A stretch of 64,000 nt of DNA from Thermodesulfobacteriota bacterium. GTDB taxonomy: Bacteria > Desulfobacterota_D > UBA1144 > Nemesobacterales > Nemesobacteraceae. The DNA lies in assembly GCA_965263275.1 (NCBI GenBank), contig OZ253668.1, positions 1,855,329 to 1,919,328 on the forward strand, read 5' to 3'. Position 1 is the stretch's first letter. Every line of letters starts with the position of its first letter. The notes under the pieces were generated by a model that had not been told where the DNA came from, searched no databases, and worked only from the letters and a program-made list of their open reading frames with translations. Both the position numbers and the translations under genes were made by a program. Positions 10,279 through 57,603 of this stretch are shown here, one piece after another.

Positions 10279-11169
10279 ATGAAAGGAATAAGAGGCGTTG
10301 GAAAAACGGTTTTGATTATGGTGACCTTTTTTCTTTTTAGTTCTTGGAATGCCTTGGCACAAGACATAGATAATACGGTAGAGACTGTGTGGTCGGCAAC
10401 TATGACGGTAGGCAGCTTTACCGCCCGTGACGGCACGGTTTACCTCGGATATGAATCCGGCATATTCCTAGGCGATCTCACCGACAACAATTTCTCTTAT
10501 GAAGGTGTTAATTACCGAGTTAAGGGAATCGTGAAGCTCGGGGATAAGATGAGGTTAGATTTCCTTAATAATGAAGTGGGTTTCAAAACAGCATGGAACA
10601 GCTACAACAAAACTTTTTATCTGAATATCGGGGATTCCGTGCAGCTTGATTTCAGGGACCGGACCATTCCTAGTGCTGACGAAGATGAAGACTATGGATT
10701 GCACGAGGATGAGGTGCGGCGTGAATGGATAGGCCAATCCTCTTATGACTGGGCTGATGGTCAGGAAATCATTGTAAGCATAACTACCAAATATCTTGAC
10801 GGTGCTCTTAAGTTGCCTTTGGATTTGTCTCTTCAGAGCGGTACTGTGACAGCCGGGACAATCGGACGATTAAAGATATTTGATGACACCGATGGTGACG
10901 GCACTGGGCGGTGGAAAAGAATATGCGATGACAATTGGGGAGATGCGGACGCGGTGGTTGCGTGCAGCCAGTTAGGCCTCTCTGGGGGCAGTGCGAGAAC
11001 CGGGAATCAGAGTTCACACCTGAGCATCAGTACCGCGGAAACCTTCTTGCTGGACCAAGTGGAATGCGTTGGTACGGAAGACAGGGTAATTGACTGTCCT
11101 CATGATGGCCGTGACGTGCACGATTGCGCTGCATGGGAAATTGCCGGGGTTGAATGTACTTCCCCTTAA
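10279..11169 (+). CDS. Secreted protein with a C-terminal SRCR (scavenger receptor cysteine-rich) domain
   Basis: RBS AAGGAGG precedes the ATG. Signal peptide MKGIRGVGKTVLIMVTFFLFSSWNALA. The C-terminal ~100 aa (GRLKIFDD...GRWKRICDDNWGDADAVVACSQLG...LLDQVECVGTEDRVIDCPHDG...HDC...IAGVEC) follows the SRCR consensus. Confidence 0.8.
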   Translation: MKGIRGVGKTVLIMVTFFLFSSWNALAQDIDNTVETVWSATMTVGSFTARDGTVYLGYESGIFLGDLTDNNFSYEGVNYRVKGIVKLGDKMRLDFLNNEVGFKTAWNSYNKTFYLNIGDSVQLDFRDRTIPSADEDEDYGLHEDEVRREWIGQSSYDWADGQEIIVSITTKYLDGALKLPLDLSLQSGTVTAGTIGRLKIFDDTDGDGTGRWKRICDDNWGDADAVVACSQLGLSGGSARTGNQSSHLSISTAETFLLDQVECVGTEDRVIDCPHDGRDVHDCAAWEIAGVECTSP

Positions 11170-11197: not shown

Positions 11198-11540
11198 ATG
11201 GATATGAACAGATCATTAAGACTGGCGGTATTTCTGTGTGTTCTTGCGGTTGCATTCTGATGGGTGCGTCGCTGTGGCCAGTGACACTCCCGGGCGTATA
11301 ACGGCCGGGGAAGTTGCGATGATGAAAGTCTGAGAGAATTCGTTGAATATGCGGTGGGGTGTCTTCAGGTACTCTGCCAGTTTTACCGAGGTGTTAGACC
11401 TGCTGTACGGTCTCAGGGAAGAGGGAGGAGACTGGAATGACGGAGCGTACGGTTTGGGCGACCGAGCGACGAAAACTTCGTGATCCATAGTACTGAGACA
11501 CTTCTCTTTTTCTTTAGAGTTATTTCAAAGCCCTGAACCT
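11198..11540 (+). pseudogene. Decayed remnant of a Cache-like 'GDWNDG' family gene; paralog of the gene at 40100
   Basis: Hand translation across three frames gives MDMNRSLRLAVFLCVLAVAF*, ..SDTPGRITAGEVAMMKV*, SLREFVEYAVG.., TEVLDLLYGLREEGGDWNDGAY.. and ENFVIHST. These are colinear with MKNLKFLVLLFC...RDPGLTATVRDASASLEDFVKHAAS...VLQLLKEFRNENGDWNDGSTY...VYIHP of the 40100 gene. Confidence 0.55.
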
Positions 11541-12780: not shown

Positions 12781-15415
12781 TCAGGTCCATTTCTCTTCTA
12801 GCCGGGTTCTCCGCGAAATCGCAATCAGGGAAAGCATAATTAAAAGCAGGTTAAGCAGGGTGTTTTCCGGCATATTCCCCGCTCCCATATCCACAGCAAT
12901 CGCGCATCCCCCCCCCGTCTGTGGTTGTCGGTTGTTGCGTCTCTAATGGTGGATGCGACTGTTCTGTCGGTTGTTGCGGTTCTGATGGTGGATGCGACTG
13001 TTCTGTCGGTTGTTGCGTCTCTGTCGGTGGCGGCGGTGGCGGTGGTGGTGGTGGCGGTGGTGGCGGCGGCGGTGGTGGCGGCGGTGGTGGTGGCGGCGGC
13101 GGCGGAGAAGAAACATCGCCGAAGACCCAGGGACGGGCCTGCTTGATCGCCAGGATATTCTCGCTGGTGATCTTGAACTCTATTTCCATGGCGAACGGTT
13201 CATCGGCCGCGGGGTTGTACAGCCCCGCGAAGTGGTCATGGATCACTGTGAGGTGATCGCGCAACTGTATCAGTTGCGCGTCACTCATCAGGAGTTGCCC
13301 TGGCTCCACCAGGTTGGAGGTGGTAAGTACCCTGTATGTTCCATCCTTGTTCAACAGGATTTCCTCTGGCACCGAGAGCGCGTCGGGATTGGTGACCAGA
13401 TCCTCGCCGAGCTGCGTGTTGACGTAGTACCAGTCGTCACTGCCGGAGGTCAGGTCGGTCGGGTCAAAGCTGACGGCCACCCCGTTGGCCAACTCGTCTT
13501 TGTAGTTGGGATGGACCAGCACCCCCATCGCCGCGGCCAGATGATCGATGCGATAAAACTCGCGCTCGGTGAAGGCCCGGAAGGTCCACAGGCTCGCAAA
13601 CACCCCCTTGAGGGACTTGTCGATGCCGTCCTCCACCGTCTCATCGGGATTCTGGGTCTTGGAGTCGTACAGGCCCGCCCCGTTAAAGCCCGGCAGGTCT
13701 TCGTTGTTCGTGCTTGATCGGTAGCGTAGTGATTGCCCCTCCGGATACGTGGCGTGCATGGTGGTCAGGGCGTCGATTATCCCCTGGGGCGAGTCCGCGT
13801 CCTCGATATCGTCGCGCAGATCGTCGAGCATGTCGTCCTGGACGTCGAAGTCCGTCTGGAAGTCTGGGTCAGCCAGCATGGTTTCAATGCGGGCATAGAA
13901 ATCGTGGGCCTTCATGAACTCGTCGTAGAAATAAAACGGGATCGCAAACCCGTCGGGAACCGTCCCCTCGGGAAAACCAAGTGTCCCCAGCACGGCCACA
14001 TTCGCTGCCTTGACGCCGAATGCGGTCCAGTCCTCAAAGCCGATCTCACTGAGGGGCGTGATCTCGGTGACGGAGAGATCCCGTTCCGGCGTTTGTTCTG
14101 TGGCGGGTCGGGAAGACTCGTAGTGCGCGTCGACTTCTGCAACCGTGGCGGCCCCTATTTCCCATCCGTTCTCTGTCACTTCATAGCGGACGTAACTGCC
14201 GATGAGGGGCGCGATGGCAGGGTCGTCGCGGATGTCCCGGATGTAGGCGTTGGGGATGCCGTTCTGCACGGCGCGCAGGTTGACGTGCGAGAGCGGGGTT
14301 TGGGGCACGGTCGAGATGATGCCGGCCACGCGGGGCAGTTCGTTGGGTAGGGCCTCGTAGAGCACGATGTCGCGCGGGTGGGGCCGGTCGTCCGGGTCCA
14401 GGACTTGCAGCCGCCCGACCCCTTCCCCCGGGTTCAACGCCAGGAAGTGGATGTTGGAGTAGACGTCCCCGTCGAACACGAGGTTGATGCGGGATTCCCG
14501 GTACAACGGCAAATCGGACTGGATATACGGAAGCTCATGGTTCCGCACATACAAGGCCAAGTTGTCTTCGAGCAGCGGCATGCTGGCGGCGAGCAGCGTA
14601 TGGGTACGCTCCATAAGGCTGAAGGAGAAAGAGTAGCGGGAGGGGAGTGTATTTAACGAGTAAAGGTAGACGCCTTGGCTGCCATCGGGGGCAACGCGGT
14701 TCTGCCTATAGGCGATCGTGCCGAGAATTACCCGCTGCCGGTTGATATGCCTGTCATCCAAGAAGGTTTGATGTGTAGGGTGCGTATTGGCGTTGATGAA
14801 ATAGACACGCGGTCGGTCGGTGTCCATGCCGAGCAGAGCGAACTTGAAGTATCCTCCTATGGCAAGCGCATCGTATGTGTGCGTATCGGGAACAGCCACA
14901 GCCCCGTCGTTCAGTGGAACGTCGGTGGCAGGGTTGACTGGGTTCATGGCCCCCAGATCATTGAGCTCGGTGATGTCGTCGACACAGTCGCCGTCAACGT
15001 CAGCGGGGTCGGCGATGAGGTACTTCTCCACCCGGTAGCGCTCCTTGGGCAGCGCATCCACGTTTTCGGCCAGCGTGGTCGTGCCGGCTTCACCGCGCTT
15101 GACCAGTACCGGAATATCCACGGTCGTGTCTGCGTCCACCTCATGACTCACGTAAAGCACGAAGTAGTCGGCGGTCGTGGAGTTGACCACGATGGGAACG
15201 GCATTAACCTCTACCGCCGTCGGCGTTGTGTTATAGCTGTTTCCTGAACACATCTCTGACTGCGGGTTGCCCTGCGCCTGTATCGGCATCGGGGTGGCCA
15301 GTAGCGTGGCGAGTGCCAGCAGCGCTCCCGGTGCCGCGCGGAAAATCAGGAAGCGGGCGAGGCTTGCAAGACGGGCGAAACGCCCCCGATAGGGCTGGTG
15401 GTACTTCCGACGCAT
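12781..15415 (-). CDS. Secreted PEP/pyruvate-binding (PPDK_N, ATP-grasp) domain protein, copy A, with polyproline stalk. The C-terminal sorting tail is out of frame because of a G9 tract
   Basis: Signal peptide ...LLATPMPIQA. PPDK_N motifs FGVKAANVAVLG..VPDGFAIP, LRYRSSTNNEDLPGFNGAGLYDS, MGVLVHPNY, NGVAVSFDP, EIEFKI...ILAIKQARPW. The ORF as given stops at 12851. With 8 G instead of 9 it reads ...DGGGCAIAVDMGAGNMPENTLLNLLLIMLSLIAISRRTRLEEKWT* and ends at 12781. Confidence 0.8.
12908..12916 (-). repeat. G9 (plus-strand C9) homopolymer inside the PPDK_N copy A coding region
   Basis: Nine C by hand count. It sits exactly between the PT-rich repeats and the anchor-coding tail. Confidence 0.85.
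12917..13105 (-). repeat. Coding repeats: ~2.7 copies of a 39-bp unit (13-aa QQPTEQSHPP[SL]E[TP]) plus an 81-nt (CCR)27 polyproline tract
   Basis: 39-bp units at 12946-12984 and 12985-13023, with a partial copy at 12917-12945. Uninterrupted CCA/CCG codons 13025-13105 (27 Pro by hand count). Confidence 0.85.
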
Positions 15416-29641: not shown

Positions 29642-29702
29642 CGGTTCCGGTTTTTTGGTATAATGAACCAAGAGGTTTTTAATCGGTCACGGGAGAATTT
29701 TC

Positions 29703-29927
29703 ATGAAAGTAACCAGCCCAGCAGGGGATTTTGAGATAACGGTGACGGAATCGTCTGTGGAGGGCGACTTTATAGTAATAAGCGGGCAGATGGGGGTGTG
29801 GGATTCACAAATCTACATGAAACCCTCCGACCTTTTGAGTTTTGCGGGAGTTCTATTTAACTTTCAGGTTGTTTTATTCCTCGTCAAGCAACCGTTCAGA
29901 TGGGTTTTCGGCAAAAAGCGAGATTAG
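29703..29927 (+). CDS. Hypothetical small protein with a C-terminal hydrophobic segment
   Basis: 74-aa ORF in its own intergenic slot. No recognisable motif. Confidence 0.3.
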   Translation: MKVTSPAGDFEITVTESSVEGDFIVISGQMGVWDSQIYMKPSDLLSFAGVLFNFQVVLFLVKQPFRWVFGKKRD

Positions 29928-30046
29928 CAGCGAGGTCTCTTCGGGGGAAGGAGTTTCTTGGCGATAGTGCTCACAAGGAAATCCGTGGATTCTTCAGGTG
30001 CATTGCTGATCGCACTCTTCTTGCCTCTTGTTCTCTTTGTTCGCGA

Positions 30047-31067
30047 TCAAGGAACAGAGATACTTCCCACTTTGACCGGAATGCCGTCTGCATCATATCT
30101 GCTGATATCGTAAATTCCTTCCGTAGGATCGCCCGCGTCATCAAGTTCGATAGTGCCGGATACTCCATCATAGTCTATATCTTTACCCTCAACCACTAGA
30201 TTGAGGCACTCAGAGAAGCTTTGACACTTCTCGCCGCCCCTTGTCACTTCGCTTATTTCATCTACGTATTCTGATGGTTCCACAGTCCGCGTGCTCAAAG
30301 AGGCAAGAACCATTATAACAGTGGCATCATAGGCATGTCGCGGGCAGGAAGGACATCCTATCTCTGGGGCAAATTCCATTATACGGCGGGCAAAATCCGG
30401 GTTCTCCGGAAAAGAAGTAGTAATACCCTTTATTCCCTCTACCTGAACTTCGTTACCTGATATTCCCAGAAAATTTCTTACGCTTGCGTTAAGGTTCGGT
30501 GGTGTGGCTCCGGCAAGATATACTTTTGTCTGGGATGGCCCCTCCGTCTTCGGCTATAACCTTGGCGATAACTACGGCCCTGAATGCATCGGAAGGCTTG
30601 GATCTGAAGAAAAACCCATTACCTGAGGTCGGTTCCGTAGTTAGAACTGGAGAAGAACTCACCGGAGAGATCATTACCATTTCATATTTGTTTATCTCAT
30701 CGAAAAGTCCCAAGGAAATGGTTGAACACCCGGCTCCGATAATGCCATGTACGCCCTCATCTATAAGCTGATTAAAAGATCTTTCTGCTGTGTCCAGACT
30801 GCATGCGCTGTCTCTCTCCGCAAGAATTACATTCACGCCGGCTTCCTGTATTTCCTTAACCGCCAGCCTGACTCCTGGCTCGTAGTTATGCCCTATCTCC
30901 GGTTCTCCTGTCTTAGAAAGGAGCATTCCCATTTTAAAAACGGGGAAGTTGTCGAGGTCAAGGTATTCATCATCCGGACCGCAACCTGTCGAAGCAGCAG
31001 CAAACACGCTTACAGCAAGCAGTGTTATGAGTAGCCCTAATGTTCCCTGCAGTTTATCTTTTCTCAT
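30047..31067 (-). pseudogene. LivK-type (Leu/Ile/Val-binding family) ABC substrate-binding lipoprotein, frameshifted and probably internally deleted
   Basis: Lipobox ...AASTGC and a Peripla_BP_6-like N-half (30489-31067). The C-half continues in another frame (30047-~30530: ..VYLAGATPPNLNASVRNFLG...IDYDGVSGTIELDDAGDP). The combined length is short for the family. Confidence 0.65.
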
Positions 31068-31126: not shown

Positions 31127-32437
31127 TTAACCGTCCGAAAATGGGTCGGGGATATCGGGGTGCCAACGTGCGAAATGGTTTTTGTGTGCCTCCGTGTAAG
31201 CTCCGGGCGGGTAGTACTTATCGTAGAAATCCAGATCCAGATGATGGGCCTGCACCATGAATCGAAGGAACATGGGATCGGAAAAAGCCGGGAACCTCCC
31301 GTAAGTATCGTAAACGTAGTTGCAGATGTCCTTTACGACCTGAATTTCATCCTTGCTGGGTCTTTCGACCTCCGCAAGTACTCCGGCTGGATCCTTGTAG
31401 GGAAGCTTGTGCGATTCCCAGTTTGTCCATTTCATGTCGTTAAACGCCTCAACGGCTTCTCCCATGTCCTTGTAGTACGGCGGGCAGAACGACTGGAACA
31501 GGTCGTCTCTACCGACTGCCACGGGGTTTGGGTTTCCCGTGTCGCCCTGTATCTTGGGAGTGGCGAACCGAAAACCCAGTCCCCTGTGAAAAGGGGTTCC
31601 GCCGAGCATGAACATGCTAGCGAATCCGCTGAAAAGCCATCCCCCGAGACCCAGGGTCTGAAGCGCCAGGACCATGTTCTGTCCCATAAAGGCCTGCTCT
31701 GCGATGTAACCGTTGGCGAAGCGAAGCTCTGCCTCGACAAGAGGCATTCTCTTCGACTTGTCAAGAAACCCTTTTTCAAGCCACTGCGCGGTTCCGGGAG
31801 GCCTGAGCCTGTGAAGCTCATCGACGAAGTTAAACCTGTGATCCGGTCTCATGTAGAAGAAATAAAGATTGATTATGCATGCCGAAAGATCGGTTACCGG
31901 CATGAACACAGTAGTTCCGGGCTTGTTCACGTTCCAAAGATTATGGGCGGCGATTCCCGGAGGCTTTGACGGCAGATCGGCCCTTCCGTCAGAAAGCTTG
32001 ATCTTGCATTCGCGGAACAGTTCAAGTATCCGGTCCACTCTCTGGTGGCGGGTCATTTTCTCAAGACCTTCAAAATCCTCGGCGCGGCGGTCATGCATCT
32101 TTATCATGTAGAGCCCCTCGTCGTTCGTGTAGAAAAGCTCCGTCCTGTGCACGTCCCCGAGGGCCGGAATCGTCTTGCTCGTAAACTGCATTTCAAGGTC
32201 AAGACCCACGTGCGGGGGGAAATCCGAGAGATTTATGTTCTTTATGCCGAGGCCGGTCCACACCAGCATGGCTTCCTCAAGTTCAGATAGCGGGACGGGG
32301 TCGTGCTTGGACTTATATTGGAGGGGTCCCCTTTCGATTTCCATTCCAAGACCGAAGCGCCGGGACCTTCTCTGAAAAACAGCGTCGTAAAAACCGTGGT
32401 TTATGGCGTGATCAAGACCTTCTGGGTATTTGCTCAT
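31127..32437 (-). CDS. Nitroreductase-superfamily protein with a SagB/ThcOx-type dehydrogenase-like domain
   Basis: RRSRRF motif, KTIPALGDVHRTELFY...EGLYMI and AEQAFMGQNMVLALQTLGLGGW are nitroreductase/SagB-like. AGGAG RBS sits 8 nt before the ATG at 32437. Confidence 0.55.
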   Translation of the reverse strand: MSKYPEGLDHAINHGFYDAVFQRRSRRFGLGMEIERGPLQYKSKHDPVPLSELEEAMLVWTGLGIKNINLSDFPPHVGLDLEMQFTSKTIPALGDVHRTELFYTNDEGLYMIKMHDRRAEDFEGLEKMTRHQRVDRILELFRECKIKLSDGRADLPSKPPGIAAHNLWNVNKPGTTVFMPVTDLSACIINLYFFYMRPDHRFNFVDELHRLRPPGTAQWLEKGFLDKSKRMPLVEAELRFANGYIAEQAFMGQNMVLALQTLGLGGWLFSGFASMFMLGGTPFHRGLGFRFATPKIQGDTGNPNPVAVGRDDLFQSFCPPYYKDMGEAVEAFNDMKWTNWESHKLPYKDPAGVLAEVERPSKDEIQVVKDICNYVYDTYGRFPAFSDPMFLRFMVQAHHLDLDFYDKYYPPGAYTEAHKNHFARWHPDIPDPFSDG

Positions 32438-32481
32438 GAAAATTTCTCCTTGATTTGGTTTCTCCGCTTGCGCGGACAAGT

Positions 32482-33030
32482 TCATTCCTCCTCCTCGGAA
32501 TCAGATGGGGTCATAAGTCTCATGTATTCATTTTCCGTGACTATTTCCAGCGAACTCTCGACCCTGTCAAGAAATACCACTCCGTTTATGTGATCGTATT
32601 CGTGCTGGAACACTCTGGCTGTAAAATCCGCGAAACTGCTTTCCACGAGATTGTTGTCCCTGTCCCTGTAGGTCGCGCGGACGGACTTATGTCTCGGTAC
32701 GAGCGCCCGGATTCCCGGGATGCTAAGGCATCCTTCCCAGTCTTTTTCCACATCGTCTGATACAGAGACTATTTCGGGATTGATTATCACTTTGGTCTCC
32801 GTTTCCGGGGCGTCGGGGTAGCGTGGACTCACGGTTCCCGCGATTATGAAAATGCGAAGAGACTCGGATACCTGAGGAGCGGCGATTCCGGCGCCGTTTG
32901 CTTCTGCGGCTGTGAGAATCATATCGTCAATCAGTTCCTGGATTTCCGTGTCGCTTATGCTCTCGACGCTTTCGGCTTCTTGCCTGAGCACGGGGTTTCC
33001 CAGTTCGGTGATTTCACGTTGCTGCGCCAT
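32482..33030 (-). CDS. def: Peptide deformylase
   Basis: GIAAPQV, EGCLS and QHEYDHINGV motifs. Confidence 0.93.
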   Translation of the reverse strand: MAQQREITELGNPVLRQEAESVESISDTEIQELIDDMILTAAEANGAGIAAPQVSESLRIFIIAGTVSPRYPDAPETETKVIINPEIVSVSDDVEKDWEGCLSIPGIRALVPRHKSVRATYRDRDNNLVESSFADFTARVFQHEYDHINGVVFLDRVESSLEIVTENEYMRLMTPSDSEEEE

Positions 33031-38877: not shown

Positions 38878-39915
38878 ATGGGAAAAACAATTTCAGGTAA
38901 CGAGAATTGCTTTGATAATATCGGTGTTCGAGCATGCGGAAAGAGGAAGAACCGAGCAATCTCTCTGCAGTGGTTAGATGCTTCCATCTTCAGTTGCGCG
39001 GGAATGTTGGCTGTCTTTTTCCTTGCGTTCTCACTCCTTAGCGTCGGCAATGTATGGGCGGGGGAAAGGGAATTTTTTCGAAAAAAGTTCCTTGTGAGCG
39101 AAACCACCAATGCAGAAGATTCGAACAACATACATACTGTGTATCAAGGAGGCCCTTTCACGAACGCTATATTTACCTATAATGGTGCCACCTACAGAGT
39201 TGAGCTTGTCGAGTCGGGGGATAGAGGAGTTAAGCTCAGGACGAACCCGAGCTTTCCGTCAACGCTGCAAGGGGCAAACAGAAGGGACTTTGATTTGCAT
39301 CTCGGTACTGAGGATGCTTCTGGCGATTATACCGAGAATGCCAGTTTTAATTTCAACAGGTGGAGCCAGTTATCTACAGTTCCGTCTTCTGCCAGCTACG
39401 ACACTCTATGGTCTGGGTCAGCCGGTTGGACACAGAGCGGAGAGAATGGCGTAATTCGTATAACCGGTCCGATTCTTAACAACGACCTTCAGTTCTCGCC
39501 TTACCTCCCGTTACCTACTAAGAATTCAGACGGGGTTGCAATTTCGGGTCGGCTTGAAATATTTGATGCTACGCAGGATACCGACGGCCAATGGAAGTGG
39601 ATATGCGACGATGGTTTTGGGGATGATGAGGCAAAGGTCGCATGCGGACAGCTGGGTCTTCCTGCAAGCGGAGCTACAACCATGGATCTGCCGGACGATT
39701 GGTTAGCAATTCCCGATAATCTTACTGGCTTCAAAGCTTTGCTTACTGCCGCAGCCATAACTTACTATTCAAGTGTTCCGGCTCTGCTCGATGACGTAGA
39801 TTGCGATGGTACGGAATCCCGGCTGATTAACTGTAACCATGCGGGGCGTGGAGCAACCGATTGCGATATATCGGAATCAGTTGCTGTCATCTGTCAGGAA
39901 GAAGCTTCCGAGTGA
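38878..39915 (+). CDS. Secreted/anchored protein with a C-terminal SRCR domain; paralog of 10279-11169
   Basis: GGAGG RBS; hydrophobic N-terminal segment. SRCR-like GRLEIFDATQDTDGQWKWICDDGFGDDEAKVACGQLG...LLDDVDCDGTESRLINCNHAG...DC...VAVIC. Shares the F[ST]Y.G..YRV motif with the first SRCR protein. Confidence 0.8.
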   Translation: MGKTISGNENCFDNIGVRACGKRKNRAISLQWLDASIFSCAGMLAVFFLAFSLLSVGNVWAGEREFFRKKFLVSETTNAEDSNNIHTVYQGGPFTNAIFTYNGATYRVELVESGDRGVKLRTNPSFPSTLQGANRRDFDLHLGTEDASGDYTENASFNFNRWSQLSTVPSSASYDTLWSGSAGWTQSGENGVIRITGPILNNDLQFSPYLPLPTKNSDGVAISGRLEIFDATQDTDGQWKWICDDGFGDDEAKVACGQLGLPASGATTMDLPDDWLAIPDNLTGFKALLTAAAITYYSSVPALLDDVDCDGTESRLINCNHAGRGATDCDISESVAVICQEEASE

Positions 39916-40099
39916 TAATTAATACCCGTGAGACGGCATTTGTCTGCAAGGCAGAGTTCCCAACGGACTATGCTGGGCGTCCACCACACGTTGTGGCAAC
40001 CTTGAGAGGCAGTTAAGAATATGGGCCCATTCCGATGCTTCAGGCCGCTGTGTCCAAGGAAGAGATAGCCGAGTTTCATAATTGATTTGCGGGGATTTG

Positions 40100-40815
40100 A
40101 TGAAAAACTTAAAGTTTTTGGTTCTTTTATTTTGCACAGCGGGGCTCTTTGGCGTTAATACAGCTTTCGCCCATACCCACAGGGATCCCGGTTTAACGGC
40201 AACGGTTAGAGATGCCAGTGCGAGTCTTGAAGATTTCGTAAAGCATGCGGCTTCGCATCTGTCAGAAGCCACAAGCTTTGAGGGAGTCTTGCAGTTGCTA
40301 AAGGAGTTCAGAAATGAGAACGGGGACTGGAACGATGGTTCCACCTACCTTATTTTGCTCACAAGGGGAGGCGGGGTGTACATTCATCCTAAGAGCAGGG
40401 AAGTAGAAGATCAGGATTGGTCTGAACTTCTTTCGGGATGTTCTCAAGGGAGCTGGCATGATCTTGTAACGGCCGGCGGAGGCTGTGTGGAAGGTCAGGG
40501 AGAAGGGAGTCGGGGTTATGCAGTTTCTTTTTCCGCTCCATATATTCCTTTTGCGAATTCAAGAAGCAAGGAAAAAGATTTTGTTCTGGTAGGAGGTCTT
40601 GATTATATGCCCAGGGCTGATACTCCTGCTTCCTTTAAAAAGATGGTGGATGATCTGGTTGACAGCTATGTCAGAAGGCTGATAGGCAGTGATGTGGATC
40701 TTGATGACCCGGCGATTTCACAGAGTCGCATGGAGTTCAGAGATAATTTCTTTGCTTTGGTGGTTCCCGAAATAGATTCCAGAGATGTCAGCGGAGAAGA
40801 GGATCTGAATGTAGC
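40100..40815 (+). pseudogene. Cache-like 'GDWNDG' surface protein, 5' part, interrupted by IS21
   Basis: Signal peptide MKNLKFLVLLFCTAGLFGVNTAFA, then a sCache-like module (...NGDWNDGSTYLILLTRGGGVYIHP...). The ORF then runs into the IS21 terminal repeat. Confidence 0.75.
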
Positions 40816-40978
40816 GCGACAAACAAGATGAGACTCTCGGCGTCGCGACGACAGAACGATACCGAGGTATTTTGGGGATTGCAAAAATATTTTTCCAATG
40901 ATGTTTCCGCCAAGGTGCGCGGGAAGGGCCGGCCCCGGATATCCGGGGCCGGACAACAGCCTGTTCGGGGGGTGGGGG

Positions 40979-41806
40979 TCAGCCGGATGTGTCGCTTTCG
41001 GTGGCGAACTTCGCGGGTCTTCCCTGTTTTTTCTTCTGTTCCATGGCTTGACGGCGTCTGTAGCTCTCCACGTTCATCTCAAGTATCACGCAGTGATGCA
41101 CAAGGCGATCCACCGCTGCCACCGCGGTGTTTTCGTCAGGAAACACCTTTGTCCATTCGGTAAACGGCTGATTGGCGGTAATGAGCACGGAACGTTGCTC
41201 ATAACGGACCGATATCAGTTCGAACAGCACGCTTGTTTCGGCGTGATCTTTGCGCACGTAGGCCAGATCGTCAAGAATCAGCAGGTCGTAGCGGTCAAGC
41301 CTGTTGAGCATGTTCTCAAGGGACAGTTCCCTTTGAGCCGTCTGGAGCTTCTGAACAAGATCCGTCGTACGGGTGAACAGCACCCGTTTCTCCTTCTCCA
41401 CCAGAGACAAGCCGATTGCCGAAGCCAGATGACTCTTGCCCGCCCCCGGAGGGCCGAAGATTATCACATTGTGTCCGCCTCTTAGCCACGAATCGTTTGA
41501 AGCCAGGGCCATGACCGTGGGTTTGGATATAGTGGGAACCGCGTCAAAGTCGAAGTTCTCAAGGGTTTTTCCTGGAAGAAGACGGGCTTCGCCCAAGTGG
41601 CGGCGTATCCTGCGCCGCTGCCGCTCGGCAAGTTCAAGATCCGCGAGAGTTGCGAGCAGCCGGGCCGCGGGCCACCCCTCGGTATCCGCCCGTTCGGCGA
41701 ACCGCTCCCACATCTGCCTGATCGCGGGCAGCCGAAGTTCGCGGAACATGAGGTCAAGGTCGGCTTTTCCGATCTCCACCACCTTTTCATTGGGTTTCGT
41801 ATTCAT
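40979..41806 (-). CDS. istB: IS21 helper ATPase IstB
   Basis: Walker A GPPGAGKSHLA, Walker B LLILDDL. Confidence 0.92.
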   Translation of the reverse strand: MNTKPNEKVVEIGKADLDLMFRELRLPAIRQMWERFAERADTEGWPAARLLATLADLELAERQRRRIRRHLGEARLLPGKTLENFDFDAVPTISKPTVMALASNDSWLRGGHNVIIFGPPGAGKSHLASAIGLSLVEKEKRVLFTRTTDLVQKLQTAQRELSLENMLNRLDRYDLLILDDLAYVRKDHAETSVLFELISVRYEQRSVLITANQPFTEWTKVFPDENTAVAAVDRLVHHCVILEMNVESYRRRQAMEQKKKQGRPAKFATESDTSG

Positions 41807-43305
41807 CTCTGTCCTCCCGTTTCAAATAAAGAGCCGTAATTGTCGAGGCGGCCTCTATGGACGTCGACTCCGGGCATAGGCCCCGTTTTCACCGTGAACC
41901 GTTCTTTGAGCTCATCGATGTCGGGAAGTTCTCCCACAGAAACGCATTTCCCTATCGCCGAAGCCAGCTGGGCTTCGCAACTGTAATCATGGGCCAGAGC
42001 CAGAAGCTTTACCGCGACTCCGCATGCCTCCCGCCCCGAGAGAAGTTCAACAGCAAGCTCAAAACAACGCTTGTACTCCTCCCGGGGAAACAGCTCATCA
42101 CGGTAAACCAGATTCATAAACGCCCCCGGCTTGCGCCGAAGCGAATGAATCACGTGATGATAATTGACCGCGTAAGCCGTTTTCTCCGAAGATCCTCTTC
42201 TCCTGCGCTCAAGGGTAAGCAGATGACGGTCTCCCAGGTACAACTCTACTCTCTCATCGTAAAGACGCGCCGCGAGACGATGCCCTATGAGACGAGAGGG
42301 GACCGTGTAGAACACTCCCTTGAGCATGAAACCGCCGGAAGAAGTAACCCTTACGCTTTCACGCCGATAAAACTCCCCGTCCTGGGGCGGAAGAGACCCA
42401 AGCACCTTGCGCTCGGTCTCTATGCGCTCCACGCGCCGGGCGTTTAGACCGCTTAGCAGTTCCGCTATGAAGTCGCGGTAAGAATCAAGATCTGCAAAGT
42501 CCCGGGAACCCCGAAGCGCCAAAGCGTCCCCTATCTCCCTTTTCAGGTGACCGTGAGAACTCTCTATCGCCCCGTTTTCGTGGGCGACCCCGCGGTTGTT
42601 GCGCGTCGGCGCCATCCCGTAATGGGCGCAAAACTCCCTGTAGCTTGCGGTCATGTCCTCGACCTCGTCCTTGCTGAGATTGCGGAGAGCCGCCGAGAGA
42701 CTGTCGGTGCGGCACTCCCGAGGAACGCCGCCCAGCATCCCCAAAGCTTCGCTGAGACCCCGGGAGAAAGCGGCGAAGCTCTCCCCTCCAAGCACTGCCG
42801 TGGCGTGAACGAACCCCGACCAGGGGAGCCGGAAGTGATAGAGCTTGTGATCAAATCTCTTTCGGGCAATCGTGATCTCAAGGGAGTTCATGGTGGTGAA
42901 GTCGGAGATCCCCACGCGCCCCGGTTCCTTTTTCTGACGGAATATCACATCCTTGTCAGCGCCATGTTCAGCCCTCCATGCCTTTATACGCCTCTCAAGA
43001 GTCCTGCGAACTCCCGGGTCAAGCTGGGGATTTTCTCTCATTATTTCGCGGAACACCGCGACGGAACGTATATCCGGACAGTTCTTGAGAATGGGAACTA
43101 CCCGGGAATCGAAAATGCCATCCAGAGGATCGGGACGTCGGCTCCCCCGGGGCTTGTTTTTAGTTCCTGATTGCGGGTCCTTGGAGATTCGGAAACCGGT
43201 AGAGCGGCTGAAACCCGCTTTGGCAGCCGCGGTTTCCGTAGAACAAGTTTGTTTGAGCTTCATGAATTTCCTCCTTTGCTCGTCAGTTATATGTTGACCT
43301 GCCAT
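41803..43305 (-). CDS. istA: IS21 transposase IstA
   Basis: HTH N-terminus (MAGQHITDEQRRKFMKLK...) and a DDE integrase core. 4-nt overlap with istB. ATG at 43305 preferred over 43443. Confidence 0.9.
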   Translation of the reverse strand: MAGQHITDEQRRKFMKLKQTCSTETAAAKAGFSRSTGFRISKDPQSGTKNKPRGSRRPDPLDGIFDSRVVPILKNCPDIRSVAVFREIMRENPQLDPGVRRTLERRIKAWRAEHGADKDVIFRQKKEPGRVGISDFTTMNSLEITIARKRFDHKLYHFRLPWSGFVHATAVLGGESFAAFSRGLSEALGMLGGVPRECRTDSLSAALRNLSKDEVEDMTASYREFCAHYGMAPTRNNRGVAHENGAIESSHGHLKREIGDALALRGSRDFADLDSYRDFIAELLSGLNARRVERIETERKVLGSLPPQDGEFYRRESVRVTSSGGFMLKGVFYTVPSRLIGHRLAARLYDERVELYLGDRHLLTLERRRRGSSEKTAYAVNYHHVIHSLRRKPGAFMNLVYRDELFPREEYKRCFELAVELLSGREACGVAVKLLALAHDYSCEAQLASAIGKCVSVGELPDIDELKERFTVKTGPMPGVDVHRGRLDNYGSLFETGGQR

Positions 43306-43487
43306 CGTGAACCTCCCGCTCAATAGATTGAGCGGGGTTCTTACCCGGCCGGTCGTGAACACCGAAAGAAATTCAAAAAAATCTGGAGAGATGCTGTCTG
43401 AAACGGAAGGAGGGCGTAGCCCGACTGGAGTTTCAGACAGCATCTCCCCAGAGTCTCATCTTGTTTGTCGCAAAAGTCCTAAGTTGA

Positions 43488-44105
43488 TTGTCGCTGTACA
43501 TGAAGCAGTTTTTAGAGAAAGCCTATTCGCTTATGACGGCATCCTTTTCTGTTGACCTGTTTGATCCTGTGATACTGCGCAGGGTTTTCAGGTTTGAAGG
43601 AGGACCCTGGAGGAATGACTCTACCTATATCTATATAATGGATGACAAGGGGAACACTATATTTAACGGTGCGAATAGAGACATTGAGCAGACGAATTTA
43701 CTGCATGATCATGGTCCTGAGATTGCGCGGATAGCTGTGGATATCAGAGCCGCGGCTATGACGAGGACGGAGGATGGAAATAGTTTCGTCGGAGGTTTTG
43801 TGAATTACAATTGGGATGATCCTGCTGTGATAGGAGACGAGGGTGATGGTCGTCCGGGAGGTTCTTCTCCAAAGCTTGCTTTTGTAAAAGCCTTTACAGT
43901 TGCGGTTGATAAGGACAAACCAGTGGATAATCCACGCATCTATATTTTTGGTTCAGGACTTTACTTGGGCGGTTTGCAGGGTGACGATGGAGACGGAGGG
44001 TGTGTGATTGCGGGGACGGAAAACAGTCTTGGAAGCACTGTAGTTAACCTGCTTCTGGTTGTATCCGGTATCTTTTTCGTTGCCTTTATTCGGCACAAGA
44101 GTTGA
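43488..44105 (+). pseudogene. Cache-like surface protein, 3' part (second Cache-like module plus the GGC sorting tail)
   Basis: ...GGPWRNDSTYIYIMDDKGNTIFNG... and C-terminus GDGGCVIAGTENSLGSTVVNLLLVVSGIFFVAFIRHKS*. No upstream start or signal peptide of its own. Confidence 0.7.
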
Positions 44106-53279: not shown

Positions 53280-53308
53280 TTGACAGCATATGCGGTTTAA
53301 GTCATATT
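53280..53308 (+). promoter_or_regulatory. Sigma70-type promoter of the toxin-antitoxin module
   Basis: TTGACA (53280-53285), 17 nt, CATATT (53303-53308), 7 nt before the GTG at 53315. Confidence 0.45.
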
Positions 53309-53314
53309 TATTCC

Positions 53315-53665
53315 GTGAGTTGGAAAGTCGATTTCGACCCGGCTTTTGACGCCGAATTTGAGAGCCTGTCCATTGCGGTGCAGGATGAGTTGCTTGCGCA
53401 TGCGAAACTTCTTGAGCAGTTTGGGCCCGAGCTGGGCCATCCTTGGGTAGACACTCTTAACGGATCGCGCCACGCCAACATGAAGGAGATTCGCTTCAAG
53501 TCCGAAAACGGCGTGTGGCGGGTCGCTTTCGCTTTTGATCCCCGACGCCGGGCCGTTCTGCTTGTTGCTGGCGACAAATAGGGCGGTAGCGAAAAGCGTT
53601 TTTACAGAGAGCTTATCAGGAAAGCGGATAAAAGGTTTGATGCGCATTTTGATCAGCTGAAGTAG
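53315..53665 (+). pseudogene. RelE/HigB-superfamily toxin interrupted by an in-frame TAG
   Basis: 88 codons (...RVAFAFDPRRRAVLLVAGDK), then TAG at 53579-53581. The same frame then continues GGSEKRFYRELIRKADKRFDAHFDQLK* to 53665. Confidence 0.6.
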
Positions 53666-53669
53666 TATC

Positions 53670-54020
53670 ATGGAGCAAGACAAGGAGATTATCATGACGA
53701 CCCTAACGGAGAGATTTGACCGGCTCCCCACGTCGCGCCGTAAGAAAGTAGAGCAGCGGGCTAGAGGGCTGATTGCCGAGGAGATGTCTCTTCGGGACCT
53801 GCGCAAGGCGCGGGAACGAACTCAGGCGCATGTGGCAAAGGAACTTGGTATCAATCAGGAGAATGTATCTCGTATCGAAAAACGAAGCGACCTGCTGATA
53901 TCTACTCTAAGCGGCTATATCGAAGCTATGGGCGGAAAGCTGAGTCTTGTGGTGGAGTTTCCTGACTGCCCGCCTGTGACACTTGCCGGTATTGCGGCTC
54001 TGGACAAAGAAGACAGTTAG
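53670..54020 (+). CDS. XRE-family HTH antitoxin (HigA-like)
   Basis: 116 aa with the HTH LRKARERTQAHVAKELGINQENVSRIEKR. Starts 4 nt after the toxin reading frame ends. Confidence 0.75.
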   Translation: MEQDKEIIMTTLTERFDRLPTSRRKKVEQRARGLIAEEMSLRDLRKARERTQAHVAKELGINQENVSRIEKRSDLLISTLSGYIEAMGGKLSLVVEFPDCPPVTLAGIAALDKEDS

Positions 54021-56088: not shown

Positions 56089-56245
56089 CCTGAAAATTCC
56101 TCCTGCAACTTTTTTTACTGCCATGATATCCATCATGGAGCAGAACTAACAATTCTAATTCACATTCTATTACAGGGAAATTCGGATTACAAGAAGAAAA
56201 ACAGGTTCCGGCGCGATATCCGCTTCGATGGCCATGCCGCGGAAA

Positions 56246-56547: not shown

Positions 56548-57603
56548 CTATGCGCGTCTTCTCAAAAAGACAACTGAGAACAGAACAGACGCTATCAGGA
56601 ACAAGTTGAGCAGAGTGCTCTGAGACGTATGTCCCGTCCCTGCGATGGCGCACGCTCCGTCGTCACCGTCTCCTGCCATCATGTCATCCATGTCGTCCAT
56701 GTCATCCATGTCATCCATCATGTCTGGAGGATAAATTCCGGAACCGAATATATAGAAAGCTGGATCGCCAAGTCCAGACGTATTTGTATTCTTTACCTCA
56801 ACATAGCTTGTCTTGGGCGACATGCCGGGGACCACGCTTCGTTCAAACCAGTCAGAAGGCTCCGGTTGGTCACCAGGTATCAACCAGTGATAGTCGACAA
56901 AACCTCCCTGCCCGTCCGTCAGTTGTCCGTTAACAGTTACCGCGTCGCGAATCAGCTTCGCTATATCTTGTTTATCAGCTGGATTCATCGGATCTGTTAG
57001 TCGGAAATTCAGGCCGTTCAGGTCGGAGCTTTGCCCGTTTAGAAACACGGTGGCATCTTCATCTGCGGACATGATAAAAGCGTATATGGAACCATCCTTG
57101 AAAGGTGCCATACTAAAACAAGCGGCTTCTTCTAGGGACCTTTGACCTACGAACCTACCAAATTCGGCCCGCATAGTGGGGTCAAGAGGATTTATCCCTT
57201 TCATAAAGGCTTCTGTCCCTATCCTCGTTAGTAGATCTACGGATGTCTCAATAATATCCTTTACATACTGTTTAAGATTGTCTTTGTCTTGGCTTGCATT
57301 GACGTCCACGGCTGTAACGGTCAAGGGCACTAAATTGGAACAGTCGGGAGGTAGTGCATCGCTTGGCGCGTGATTATAACCTACTATTGAGGTCACCGTT
57401 CCGCCGGCGGTGTCCCCTTTAATTGCGCATGCCCACTTGCTGCCGTTATATTGTTCGCAGTATGGAGCGGTGGTGGCGTTATCGAATAAGTTTTTTATAG
57501 TTCCGGGCGAAGAAAGATCAAATCTGTGACCATACAAATTAGTATGTAGCCCGTGATTTTTTACTGGACTGACATAGTAGTGTAAAATCAGCCCTTCATA
57601 CAT
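56548..57603 (-). pseudogene. Cache-like surface protein gene B, 5'-truncated: no signal peptide, no RBS and most of module 1 missing
   Basis: Colinear with gene A from inside module 1 (YEGLILHYYVSPVKNHGLHTNLYGHRFD ~ GNFYAIGINDNNLVTNHAGHPGLIGHKFN). C-terminus (MDD)4...DDGACAIAGTGHTSQSTLLNLFLIASVLFSVVFLRRRA*. Confidence 0.65.
56683..56718 (-). repeat. 4 tandem copies of the same 9-bp Met-Asp-Asp unit
   Basis: gtcatccat / gtcgtccat units by hand count. Confidence 0.9.

What the first reader, a model, noticed from the sequence alone, without database searches (positions are those of the whole stretch)
10279..11169. Eukaryote-like SRCR domain in a bacterial secreted protein (two paralogs in the window)
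The C-terminal ~100 aa of 10279-11169 and ~120 aa of 38878-39915 follow the scavenger receptor cysteine-rich consensus: GRLE[IV]F....G.W..[IV]CDD.[WF]....A.V[AV]C.QLG ... LD.V.C.G.E..[LV]..C.H.G....C...E.[AV][GA]V.C. SRCR is overwhelmingly a metazoan innate-immunity and adhesion module, and it is uncommon in bacteria. Where it does occur it is usually read as a eukaryote-like protein of host-associated or marine particle-associated lineages. The N-terminal halves are a shared but unknown beta-rich domain with the motif F[ST]Y.G..YRV.
Basis: partly seen in the sequence, partly recalled or inferred. Interest (0 to 1): 0.7.

Follow-up and report, generated by a model that had tools for sequence, protein, structure and literature searches.

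The report
Secreted SRCR-domain proteins in a Dadabacteria genome
Two genes of an uncultured Candidatus Dadabacteria bacterium encode exported proteins that end in a true animal-type scavenger-receptor (SRCR) domain with its metal-dependent binding site intact, fused to an unnamed bacterial surface-protein module; this is an uncommon and unstudied protein type, though databases already record the domain in bacteria.

Summary
Both ORFs (10279-11169 and 38878-39915) match Pfam SRCR at 59.7 and 56.7 bits, against a cut-off of 26.1. Both carry the six cysteines of group-A SRCR domains. Both keep every acidic residue of the cation-binding ligand site defined in DMBT1 and MARCO.

The shared N-terminal half is also real. 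It is a ~140-residue beta-sandwich module with no Pfam, NCBIfam or PDB counterpart. It recurs in about 180 representative proteins (one per 50%-identity cluster), mostly giant proteins; the six larger ones scanned also carry fn3, cadherin or Ig-like domains.

The host is a Candidatus Dadabacteria bacterium (MurE 88% identical to a named MAG; contig 1.92 Mb). The genes sit among housekeeping genes, so this is not animal contamination.

Dadabacteria SRCR domains cluster together (neighbour-joining, bootstrap about 50%). They are at most 40-46% identical to animal SRCRs, so there is no sign of recent transfer from a host.

In relatives the SRCR gene is often followed by a gene for an anchored Cache-domain protein. 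In this window one such partner is a frameshifted relic and the other is split by an IS21 element.

The most likely function is a secreted Ca2+-dependent binding or adhesion protein. Host mimicry is plausible but untested. I rate it a new variant of a known kind, of moderate interest.

The parts
10279..11169 (+). SRCR1 gene, 296 aa. Signal peptide aa 1-27 (10279-10359, predicted cleavage ALA|QD). Unnamed beta-sandwich N-domain aa 29-172 (10363-10794). SRCR domain aa ~174-294 (10798-11160).
   Evidence: (PF00530, 59.7 bits). The identical protein is found in four other assemblies.
38878..39915 (+). SRCR2 gene, 345 aa. Long N-terminal leader with a hydrophobic segment, aa 1-61 (predicted cleavage VWA|GE). 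N-domain aa ~62-199 (39061-39474). SRCR domain aa ~200-341 (39475-39900) with a ~25-aa loop insertion.
   Evidence: PF00530, 56.7 bits; N-domain HMM, 126 bits.
11204..11447 (+). Relic of the Cache-domain partner gene downstream of SRCR1. Only the first ~80 codons remain, with in-frame stops and a frameshift.
   Evidence: tblastn with the L001 Cache protein: 49% identity over 75 aa, E 3e-14, two frames, stop codons inside the alignment.
40082..40831 (+). N-terminal half of the Cache-domain partner gene downstream of SRCR2. It is cut off by the IS21-type insertion.
   Evidence: 48% identical to residues 1-191 of the L008 Cache protein. The ORF ends inside the left IS end.
40816..43471 (-). IS21-family insertion sequence: 25-nt terminal inverted repeats, istA 41803-43443, istB 40979-41806.
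   Evidence: Inverted repeat I2, 96% complementary. IstB_IS21 PF01695 at 211 bits. Mu-transpos_C_2 hit in istA.
43488..44105 (+). C-terminal half of the same Cache gene, with a C-terminal tail GGCVIAGT...hydrophobic...RHKS (membrane anchor or sorting signal).
   Evidence: dCache_2 hit. 51% identical to residues 220-407 of the L008 Cache protein. Tail motif shared with two other window proteins.

Best explanation
The two genes are paralogs. Each encodes an exported two-domain binding protein of a Candidatus Dadabacteria bacterium.

Shown:
- Each protein starts with a Sec-type signal peptide.
- Next comes a ~140-residue beta-sandwich module of an unnamed family. Elsewhere this module occurs, often in several copies, in giant proteins; the larger ones scanned also carry fn3, cadherin or Ig-like domains.
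- Each protein ends in a six-cysteine (group-A type) SRCR domain.
- The SRCR domain keeps all residues of the acidic cation-binding cluster.

Inferred:
- After export, three disulfides form: C216-C283, C229-C293 and C263-C273, by homology.
- The acidic cluster (D217, D218, E287; D259, Q260, D282) holds Ca2+ or Mg2+.
- As in DMBT1, MARCO and CD163, the metal bridges to anionic groups on a target such as sulfated or carboxylated glycans, phosphates or acidic protein patches.
- The N-domain supplies a second binding surface or a spacer.
- The protein therefore works as a secreted or surface-associated Ca2+-dependent adhesin or cross-linker.
- If the bacterium lives in a sponge, as many Dadabacteria do, the likely targets are host matrix or the ligands of the host's own large SRCR receptor repertoire.

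In related genomes the gene is often paired with a downstream gene for a membrane-anchored extracytoplasmic double-Cache protein with no output domain. In this genome both partners are inactivated, so the SRCR proteins presumably act without them.
For: SRCR identity:
- Pfam hits at 59.7 and 56.7 bits.
- Profile hits to solved SRCRs.
- Six invariant Cys, with C1 and C4 of group B absent.

Binding site:
- DMBT1 site 2 (D1019, D1020, E1086) and site 3 (D1020, D1058, D1059, N1081) are defined in PMC7043408, which shows them by mutagenesis to be required for Ca2+-dependent ligand binding.
- The equivalent positions are D, D, E, D in all 47 Dadabacteria SRCR domains examined. The remaining two positions are D/E/Q/N and D/N.

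Export:
- Protein 1 has K/R-rich n-regions, an 11-14-residue hydrophobic core and an AxA-type cleavage site; protein 2 has a hydrophobic core and VWA.
- Neither has a C-terminal anchor.

N-domain:
- A profile search found 180 proteins at E<=1e-3, up to 7601 aa, with several copies per protein.
- All six scanned hits of 896-2260 aa carry fn3, some also cadherin, Big_5 or SWM_repeat. Of ten hits of 155-636 aa, two carry Cadherin/Big_9 or an Ig-like surface domain and seven have no Pfam match.
- The AlphaFold model has pLDDT 86.2 and pTM 0.81 and is mainly beta, with one short helix.

Bacterial origin:
- Housekeeping neighbours.
- The identical protein occurs on contigs of 36 kb to 1.66 Mb in four assemblies.
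- MurE is 88% identical to a Candidatus Dadabacteria MAG protein.

Partner gene:
- A Cache gene lies directly downstream of an SRCR gene in 7 of 16 related loci.
- Both window copies are degraded.
Against: - No experiment supports the function, and no ligand is known.
- The full-length structure model failed (pLDDT 36.6), so the SRCR fold rests on sequence alone.
- The N-domain has no characterised relative, so 'adhesin-type' is guilt by association.
- Both Cache partners are dead here. This could mean the whole cassette is being lost in this lineage.
- Sponge association of this genome was not verified. It rests on assembly naming and on literature about the phylum.
- Whether the protein is released, periplasmic or surface-bound is unknown.
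Confidence: 0.55

Rival explanations
1. Host mimicry or decoy. The secreted SRCR protein copies the host animal's SRCR pattern-recognition receptors. It competes for their ligands or masks the symbiont's own surface, lowering recognition and phagocytosis by sponge cells. This is a more specific version of the best explanation.
For: - Sponges have very large SRCR repertoires (296 genes in Amphimedon, PMC10855680), and these respond to microbes (papers listed).
- The ligand-binding cluster is fully conserved.
- The paralogs diverge fast: 32% identity within the genome, and 51-58% to P0002-P0004, including two copies on a contig from the same sample.
- Dadabacteria MAGs are recovered from sponges.
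Against: - Host association of this genome is unverified.
- Identity to a sponge SRCR (Halichondria) is only 35-40%, no higher than to bird or mollusc SRCRs, so there is no sign of tracking a host receptor.
- No paper in the library mentions bacterial SRCR proteins.
Confidence: 0.25
2. Recent horizontal acquisition from the animal host, or outright host contamination or chimeric assembly.
For: SRCR is overwhelmingly a metazoan domain. The best database hits by score are animal multi-SRCR proteins. Eukaryotic SRCR-rich contigs do occur in similar metaMDBG assemblies.
Against: - The genes have Shine-Dalgarno sites, bacterial signal peptides and no introns.
- They lie between murJ/mraZ and other housekeeping genes on Mb-scale contigs, reproduced in four assemblies.
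- The nearest SRCR relatives are other Dadabacteria (46-74%), then other bacteria (42-46%), then animals (at most 40% for protein 1, at most 46% for protein 2).
- All 26 non-redundant Dadabacteria domains form one neighbour-joining clade.
- Bacterial contexts were confirmed for other SRCR hits.
Confidence: 0.03
3. Decaying cassette. The SRCR genes are remnants of an SRCR-plus-Cache surface system that this reduced, IS-rich genome is losing, and they no longer have a function.
For: - Both downstream Cache partners are inactivated: a relic at 11204-11447 and an IS21 split at 40816-43471.
- There are three IS elements in 64 kb and another truncated gene.
Against: - Both SRCR ORFs are intact, with good ribosome-binding sites.
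- All six cysteines and all site residues are kept.
- The identical protein is present in four assemblies, and a 99% variant exists.
- 9 of 16 related loci have an SRCR gene without a Cache neighbour, so the pairing is not obligatory.
Confidence: 0.12
4. Envelope or periplasmic role unrelated to any host. Examples are binding the cell's own polyanionic envelope polymers, cell-cell aggregation or biofilm formation among bacteria, or capture of an anionic substrate.
For: - SRCR domains also occur in Myxococcota MAGs and in another bacterial contig with glycoside hydrolase neighbours. Host association is not apparent for any of these.
- The N-domain is common in giant bacterial proteins of unknown habitat.
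Against: Nothing excludes it. It differs from the best explanation only in the target. The proteins have no lipoprotein box and no anchor that would hold them at the envelope.
Confidence: 0.25

Closest known systems
Metazoan group-A SRCR domains (MARCO, SR-AI, SCARA5, Mac-2BP, LOXL2, neurotrypsin; Pfam PF00530)
   Same: - About 100-residue domain.
- The same six cysteines.
- The same GRxE(I/V)f...W..(I/V)CDD...A.V.C.QLG...LD.V.C.G.E..L..C.H....C...E.A.V.C framework.
- The same acidic cation-binding cluster.
   Different: - Encoded in a bacterium, as a single domain at the C-terminus of a small secreted protein.
- Fused to a bacterial module instead of collagenous, coiled-coil, protease or lysyl-oxidase parts.
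- An extra acidic loop, FDDxDxDGxG, lies between the first strand and the conserved Trp. It resembles the DxDxDG calcium-binding motif (that resemblance is from my own knowledge and is untested).
- Identity is only 35-46%.
Group-B SRCR proteins (DMBT1/SALSA, CD163, CD5L, CD6)
   Same: - Best-scoring solved relatives.
- The ligand-binding mechanism defined there (sites 2 and 3, PMC7043408) maps residue for residue onto the bacterial domains.
   Different: The C1-C4 disulfide that defines group B is absent from every bacterial copy. These proteins are not tandem multi-SRCR arrays.
Two-SRCR proteins of other Dadabacteria / Thermodesulfobacteriota MAGs (P0005, L002-L016; ~400-450 aa)
   Same: - Same phylum.
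- Their SRCR domains are the closest relatives (46-53%).
- Same acidic loop in their first SRCR domain.
- Same long leader.
- Often the same downstream Cache gene.
   Different: - Architecture is SRCR, then a middle SFSYQWIR-type domain with no Pfam match, then SRCR. The N-domain is absent.
- Located at the ispE-pcrA locus, not at murJ.
[quoted passage not shown]
   Same: Bacterial, six-cysteine SRCR with the acidic cluster conserved.
   Different: - Different architectures: an SRCR-only 147-aa protein, and a 795-aa partial reading frame that runs to the start of its contig and has Cys-rich repeats (my reading of the sequence; no domain scan was run on it).
- 35-44% identity.
- None has the N-domain.
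Eukaryote-like proteins of sponge symbionts (ankyrin, TPR, LRR, fibronectin III, cadherin classes)
   Same: The concept is the same: an animal-type interaction module in a bacterium from a phylum with sponge-associated members.
   Different: - SRCR is not among the classes found in the papers retrieved here, and no paper combined SRCR with Dadabacteria.
- Function and host association are untested for this protein.

Membership tests
SRCR superfamily (Pfam PF00530) | Profile match above the curated gathering score | tested here: met
   59.7 and 56.7 bits against a cut-off of 26.1. Profile hits to 25 solved SRCR chains.
SRCR superfamily (Pfam PF00530) | Six conserved cysteines at group-A positions (C2, C3, C5, C6, C7, C8 in the eight-Cys numbering) | tested here: met
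   Pattern .CC.CCCC in all 8 N-domain-type and all 39 two-SRCR-type Dadabacteria domains.
SRCR superfamily (Pfam PF00530) | Acidic cation-binding cluster used for ligand binding (DMBT1 D1019, D1020, E1086; D1058, D1059, N1081) | tested here: met
   D217, D218, E287, D259, Q260, D282 in protein 1. D, D, E, D are invariant in all 47 domains.
SRCR superfamily (Pfam PF00530) | [quoted passage not shown] | tested here: inconclusive
   The full-length AlphaFold model from a 6-sequence alignment was unusable (pLDDT 36.6).
SRCR superfamily (Pfam PF00530) | Three disulfides formed; Ca2+-dependent ligand binding | not testable with these tools
   Needs protein chemistry.
Group-B SRCR | Additional C1-C4 cysteine pair (eight cysteines) | tested here: not met
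   C1 and C4 columns are never Cys in the bacterial domains. They are present in bird DMBT1 and CD163.
Recently host-derived eukaryote-like protein (HGT from an animal) | Nearest relatives are animal sequences, or the gene nests inside an animal clade | tested here: not met
   The nearest relatives are Dadabacteria, then other bacteria; animals reach at most 40-46%. The Dadabacteria domains form one NJ clade with bootstrap about 0.50. An ancient transfer is not excluded.
Unnamed N-domain family (WSATLTVG...LTDxxFxYxGxxYxV...LTLxVG...W...WSxGxxVxVxLT) | Significant profile match over the whole ~130-140-residue module | tested here: met
   The search profile (A4) was built from five sequences that include both window copies, so their own high scores are partly circular. 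Independent support: the profile finds 180 proteins at E<=1e-3 and 21 at E<=1e-10, the two window copies are 32% identical, and a 51-sequence alignment (which also includes both window copies) shares 8 nearly invariant positions.
Cache-domain extracytoplasmic proteins (partner gene) | Pfam sCache_2 / dCache_2 match | tested here: met
   L001 and L008 orthologues score 52-63 bits. The window's C-terminal half scores 27.2 bits against a cut-off of 26.5. The N-terminal half has no Pfam hit on its own.
IS21 family | istA plus istB gene pair flanked by terminal inverted repeats | tested here: met
   IstB_IS21 at 211 bits. 25-nt inverted repeats at 40816-40840 and 43447-43471. No clear target-site duplication was seen.

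The most novel reading that the evidence does not exclude
Dadabacteria carry a lineage-specific, rapidly diversifying family of secreted SRCR proteins. It has two architectures, often paired with an anchored Cache protein. The proteins act as molecular mimics or decoys of the host sponge's own SRCR receptors and use the same Ca2+-dependent acidic site. This would be a bacterial counter-measure aimed at an animal innate-immune receptor family, built from the same domain.

A secondary point: the N-domain would be a new beta-sandwich fold family shared with giant bacterial multidomain proteins and with uncharacterised phage proteins.
Probability: 0.2. Interest if true: 0.8.

Novelty: new variant of a known kind. 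Interest (0 to 1): 0.5.

Why it matters
SRCR domains are a core part of animal innate immunity and cell adhesion. Sponges in particular have hundreds of them. A symbiont lineage that secretes its own SRCR proteins, with the ligand-binding site intact, offers a concrete and testable candidate for how bacteria persist inside a filter-feeding host that eats bacteria.

The finding also shows that the Ca2+-dependent SRCR binding mechanism is conserved outside animals, which bears on the origin of the fold.

As a by-product, it defines an unnamed domain family of about 180 representative proteins, with a confident model and no solved relative. It also reveals a recurrent SRCR-Cache gene pair.

If none of the host-related ideas hold, it remains an ordinary rare domain combination in a secreted bacterial protein.

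Tried and rejected
- **Full-length structure prediction.** A six-sequence alignment gave pLDDT 36.6, which is useless. No SRCR model or fold search was therefore possible.
- **Fold search of the N-domain model against the PDB.** No real match: best E 0.15, TM 0.22. The viral library gave only uncharacterised phage proteins.
- **Family libraries for the N-domain.** Pfam, NCBIfam and PHROGs scans found nothing significant.
- **Is the middle domain of the two-SRCR proteins a diverged N-domain?** HMM search says no.
- **Retrieving the DMBT1 SRCR8 sequence from the PDB tool.** The alignments shown were CD163 only. I used my remembered consensus instead. It scored 234 bits over 101 residues against chain 6sa5_A, and its residue spacing reproduces every residue number given in PMC7043408.
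- **Source habitat.** Literature searches for accessions and MAG names found nothing. No paper links SRCR to Dadabacteria.
- **Confirming a sponge origin through a eukaryotic SRCR contig.** The contig found came from a different sample.
- **tRNA and Rfam scans of the window.** Nothing found.
- **Promoter scan.** One 10/12 match lies upstream of SRCR1, but the count does not exceed shuffled controls.
- **Host contamination and recent HGT.** Both considered and rejected (see rivals).
Full report
**1. The observation**

The window holds an ORF at 10279-11169 (+, 296 aa) and another at 38878-39915 (+, 345 aa). Both ATG codons have strong Shine-Dalgarno sequences upstream: AAGGAGG 5 nt before the first and GAGGAGG 7 nt before the second.

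Pfam places an SRCR domain (PF00530) at residues 209-294 of protein 1 (E 3.7e-16, 59.7 bits) and at residues 222-340 of protein 2 (E 3.1e-15, 56.7 bits). The curated cut-off is 26.1 bits. Weaker hits to SRCR_2 and Hepsin-SRCR fall on the same stretch.

The two proteins are 32% identical over 276 residues (E 1e-23), across both halves. A profile of the family matches solved SRCR structures: CD163, PIT54, CD5L, LOXL2, CD6, DMBT1, Mac-2BP, neurotrypsin, MARCO, SCARA5 and SR-AI. Single-domain E-values reach 1e-15. Nothing in the PDB matches the N-terminal 170 residues.

**2. Anatomy of the SRCR domain**

Six cysteines are invariant in the family: C216, C229, C263, C273, C283 and C293 in protein 1. 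I aligned the bacterial domains with CD163 domain 3 and a DMBT1 SRCR consensus. The six cysteines correspond to C2, C3, C5, C6, C7 and C8. C1 (...C.GR.E) and C4 (QLGC) are Cys in the two group-B references but never in any bacterial copy.

This is the group-A pattern: six cysteines and three disulfides (classification as summarised in PMC10855680). By homology the pairs would be C216-C283, C229-C293 and C263-C273. That pairing is an inference from established knowledge of the fold.

Reichhardt et al. (PMC7043408) defined the SRCR ligand-binding mechanism in DMBT1 SRCR8:
- A surface cation site 2 (D1019, D1020, E1086).
- A surface cation site 3 (D1020, D1058, D1059, N1081).
- The D1019A and D1020A mutations abolish Ca2+-dependent binding to all ligands tested.
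- The same surface is used in MARCO, CD6 and CD163.
- The site is not conserved in the non-binding SRCRs of hepsin and factor I.

In the alignment these positions are D217, D218, E287, D259, Q260 and D282 in protein 1, and D, D, E, D, D, D in protein 2. Across 47 Dadabacteria SRCR domains the first four are invariant. The other two are D/E/Q/N and D/N, which are exactly the substitutions the paper counts as conservative.

The DMBT1 sequence I used came from memory. It scored 234 bits over 101 residues against chain 6sa5_A, and its spacing reproduces every residue number given in the paper.

Relative to animal SRCRs, the bacterial domains carry a six-residue acidic insertion (FDDTDGDGTG, consensus FDDPDxDGxG) before the conserved Trp. 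It resembles the DxDxDG calcium-binding loop. That resemblance is from my own knowledge and is untested.

**3. The N-terminal half**

Residues 29-172 of protein 1 and about 62-199 of protein 2 form a shared module. It has no Pfam or NCBIfam model.

I built a profile of five copies and searched it against 1.84 billion representative proteins. It found 180 proteins at E<=1e-3 and 21 at E<=1e-10. Most are very large, up to 7601 aa, with two to eight matched stretches each.

Six larger hits (896-2260 aa) all also carry fn3 domains, some with cadherin, Big_5 or SWM_repeat, and the module itself is covered by no Pfam family. Of ten hits of 155-636 aa, two carry Cadherin/Big_9 or an Ig-like surface domain, one has only a weak TadE match, and seven have no Pfam match at all.

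The consensus is WSATLTVG...(G)...LTDxxFxYxGxxYxV...LTLxVG...W...LxWSxGxxVxVxLT.

AlphaFold on a 51-sequence alignment gave a confident model: pLDDT 86.2 and pTM 0.81, with ten strands and one short helix.

Foldseek found no real match among solved structures (best E 0.15, TM 0.22). It did match predicted structures of uncharacterised proteins of uncultured tailed phages (TM 0.58-0.65, E 1.5e-5 to 6e-4). PHROGs gave nothing significant.

The N-domain is therefore a real, widespread, unnamed beta-sandwich module. It keeps company typical of adhesins and other surface proteins, but its function is unknown.

**4. Export signals**

Protein 1 begins MKGIRGVGK-TVLIMVTFFLF-SSWNALA|QD. This is a basic n-region, a hydrophobic core and an AxA cleavage site, with no lipobox cysteine.

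Protein 2 has a ~40-residue leader before MLAVFFLAFSLLSVGNVWA|GE. The two-SRCR relatives have a similar long leader.

Neither protein has a C-terminal anchor. Each ends 3-6 residues after the last cysteine. I read both as Sec-exported soluble proteins. This comes from the sequence; no predictor was available.

**5. Organism and context**

The neighbours are ordinary bacterial housekeeping genes:
- mraY, murF, murE, ftsI, rsmH, mraZ and murJ upstream of SRCR1.
- A TPR gene downstream of SRCR1.
- htrA, ridA and a DUF6775 gene upstream of SRCR2.
- Elsewhere in the window: ribosomal proteins, H+-pyrophosphatase, prs and aroQ/aroE.

The window's MurE is 88% and 79% identical to NCBI proteins named Candidatus Dadabacteria. 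More distant hits are Thermodesulfobacteriota. The window's own contig is 1.92 Mb.

The exact SRCR1 protein is encoded, with the same neighbours, on contigs of 36 kb to 1.66 Mb in four ENA assemblies. Contamination or chimerism is excluded.

The contig names have the metaMDBG style used for the microbial fraction of sponge genome projects, and those projects recover Dadabacteria. Dadabacteria are a recurrent sponge-associated phylum. I could not verify the habitat of these particular samples.

**6. Relatives and evolution**

Full-length relatives are very few: a 99% variant, three proteins at 51-58%, and a 397-aa protein sharing only the SRCR part. One contig (L001) carries two N-domain/SRCR paralogs with a Cache gene between them.

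A scan of 185,579 species genomes with family-specific patterns found 17 loci. Fifteen are in Thermodesulfobacteriota or Candidatus Dadabacteria MAGs of 1.5-2.3 Mb. The count includes one labelled Spirochaetia that has the same synteny and is probably mis-binned. The others are one Archangiaceae contig and one unclassified bacterium.

The Dadabacteria loci encode a second architecture: leader, SRCR, a middle SFSYQWIR-type domain, then SRCR (~400-450 aa). These lie between ispE and pcrA, sometimes in two copies. The N-domain is absent from them.

An SRCR-domain profile search returned 491 proteins. [quoted passage not shown] A 147-aa SRCR-only protein sits between LexA, GH35 and CrcB genes on a 1.13-Mb bacterial contig.

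Pairwise identity of the SRCR1 domain:

| Compared with | Identity |
|---|---|
| N-domain-type relatives | 74% |
| Second SRCR of the two-SRCR proteins | 51-53% |
| First SRCR of the two-SRCR proteins | 46% |
| Other bacteria | 42-46% |
| Animals | at most 40% |
| The sponge Halichondria | 35-39% |

SRCR2 reaches 46% to a mollusc SRCR.

In a neighbour-joining tree of 127 non-redundant domains, all 26 Dadabacteria domains form one clade. Its nearest neighbours are an unnamed metagenomic sequence and then a mixed group containing Archangiaceae. Bootstrap support for the clade is only about 0.50.

My reading is one old acquisition, or ancient presence, followed by duplication and domain shuffling within the lineage. 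Nothing points to a recent transfer from a host. With 94 alignment columns the deep branching cannot be resolved.

**7. The partner gene and its decay**

A gene for a ~390-410-aa protein lies directly downstream of an SRCR gene in 7 of 16 related loci (L001, L004, L007-L011). It has a signal peptide and two Cache-like halves (sCache_2/dCache_2, 52-63 bits). Some copies (the window's, L001, L007, L008) also end in a C-terminal hydrophobic tail. It has no cytoplasmic output domain, so it is an anchored binding protein rather than a sensor.

In the window both partners are broken:
- Downstream of SRCR2 the gene is split into 40082-40831 and 43488-44105 by a 2.66-kb IS21-type element. The element has 25-nt terminal inverted repeats at 40816-40840 and 43447-43471, plus istA and istB.
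- Downstream of SRCR1 only a ~80-codon relic remains at 11204-11447, with stop codons and a frameshift.

The SRCR genes themselves are intact. Either they work without the Cache partner, as in the nine related loci that lack it, or the cassette is eroding.

**8. Most likely mechanism**

Shown: an exported protein, an SRCR domain of group-A type, a conserved cation-binding cluster, and an N-terminal beta-sandwich of a surface-protein family.

Inferred: oxidative folding takes place in the periplasm. Ca2+ and Mg2+, abundant in seawater, occupy the acidic cluster. The metal bridges to anionic ligands as in DMBT1, MARCO and CD163. The two domains together give an adhesin or cross-linker, or a soluble competitor of host SRCR receptors.

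Confidence:
- About 0.95 that these are bona fide secreted bacterial SRCR proteins.
- About 0.55 that they act as Ca2+-dependent binders of polyanionic ligands.
- About 0.2-0.25 that they specifically mimic host receptors.

**9. Novelty and score**

SRCR in bacteria is rare but already in databases and auto-annotated. Animal-type interaction domains in symbionts of sponges are a known theme.

New here:
- The N-domain/SRCR architecture, with very few members known.
- The definition of the unnamed N-domain family, with a confident model and no solved relative.
- Full conservation of the metazoan ligand-binding site in a bacterial clade.
- The recurrent SRCR-Cache pairing.
- The decay of both Cache partners in this genome.

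No paper in the searchable library describes bacterial SRCR proteins. I class this as a new variant of a known kind, with interest about 0.5.

Noticed in passing
window 43488-44105 (+), 56548-57603 (-), 54520-56136 (-); also L001 6101-7321 and L007/L008 11239-12477: Three Cache-like proteins in the window share a C-terminal tail: G-[GA]-C-x-I-A-G-T, about 7 residues, LLNLFL[IV]xSxxFxVxF[IL]R[RH][RK]. Two of them have (MDD)n acidic repeats just before it. It looks like an unnamed, Cys-containing C-terminal sorting signal or membrane anchor, reminiscent of the GlyGly-CTERM and MYXO-CTERM classes. NCBIfam did not match the two tail-bearing proteins scanned (L001 Cache and 43488-44105).
   Followed up: partly
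window 12851-15415 (-) and 17938-20496 (-): Two tandem paralogs, 81% identical, encode ~850-aa proteins with a signal peptide, a PPDK_N (PEP-utilising, ATP-binding) domain, a run of 27-36 consecutive prolines and TEQSHPP-type repeats. Their C-termini diverge after TTDGG. An exported PPDK_N-domain protein is unusual.
   Followed up: partly
window 16591-17874 (+), 40816-43471, 63162-63902 (+): There are three insertion-sequence transposase loci in 64 kb. An IS110-type gene sits between the two PPDK_N paralogs and is 56% identical to one in MAG locus L015. An IS21-type element splits the Cache gene. A Mutator/IS256-type gene matches only profile positions 9-225 of 379 and is probably truncated. 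This is a high IS load for a ~1.7-1.9-Mb genome.
   Followed up: partly
window 30489-31067 (-): A 192-aa ORF matches only positions 3-126 of the 343-position Peripla_BP_6 profile. It is probably a truncated periplasmic binding-protein gene. About 850 bp of apparently non-coding DNA lies on its low-coordinate side (29642-30488).
   Followed up: no
N-domain model of window 10363-10794: The confident AlphaFold model (pLDDT 86) has no solved structural relative. It does match BFVD models of uncharacterised proteins from uncultured tailed phages (TM 0.58-0.65). The fold may therefore be shared between giant bacterial multidomain proteins and phage proteins.
   Followed up: partly
L013 (CAYSDX010000074.1, labelled uncultured Spirochaetia): This contig carries the same two-SRCR gene, at the same position in the fetched locus, as the Dadabacteria/Thermodesulfobacteriota MAGs. 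The taxonomic label is probably a binning error.
   Followed up: no
window 31127-32485 (-), 53297-53806 (-), 58272-59168 (-): ORFs of 452, 169 and 298 aa have no Pfam match. They were not examined further.
   Followed up: no
L026 (ENA ERZ25878362, 1.04-Mb contig): Tandem SRCR exons separated by sparse short ORFs, which looks like an animal (host) contig inside a metaMDBG metagenome assembly. SRCR hits from such assemblies cannot be assumed to be bacterial without checking their context.
   Followed up: partly
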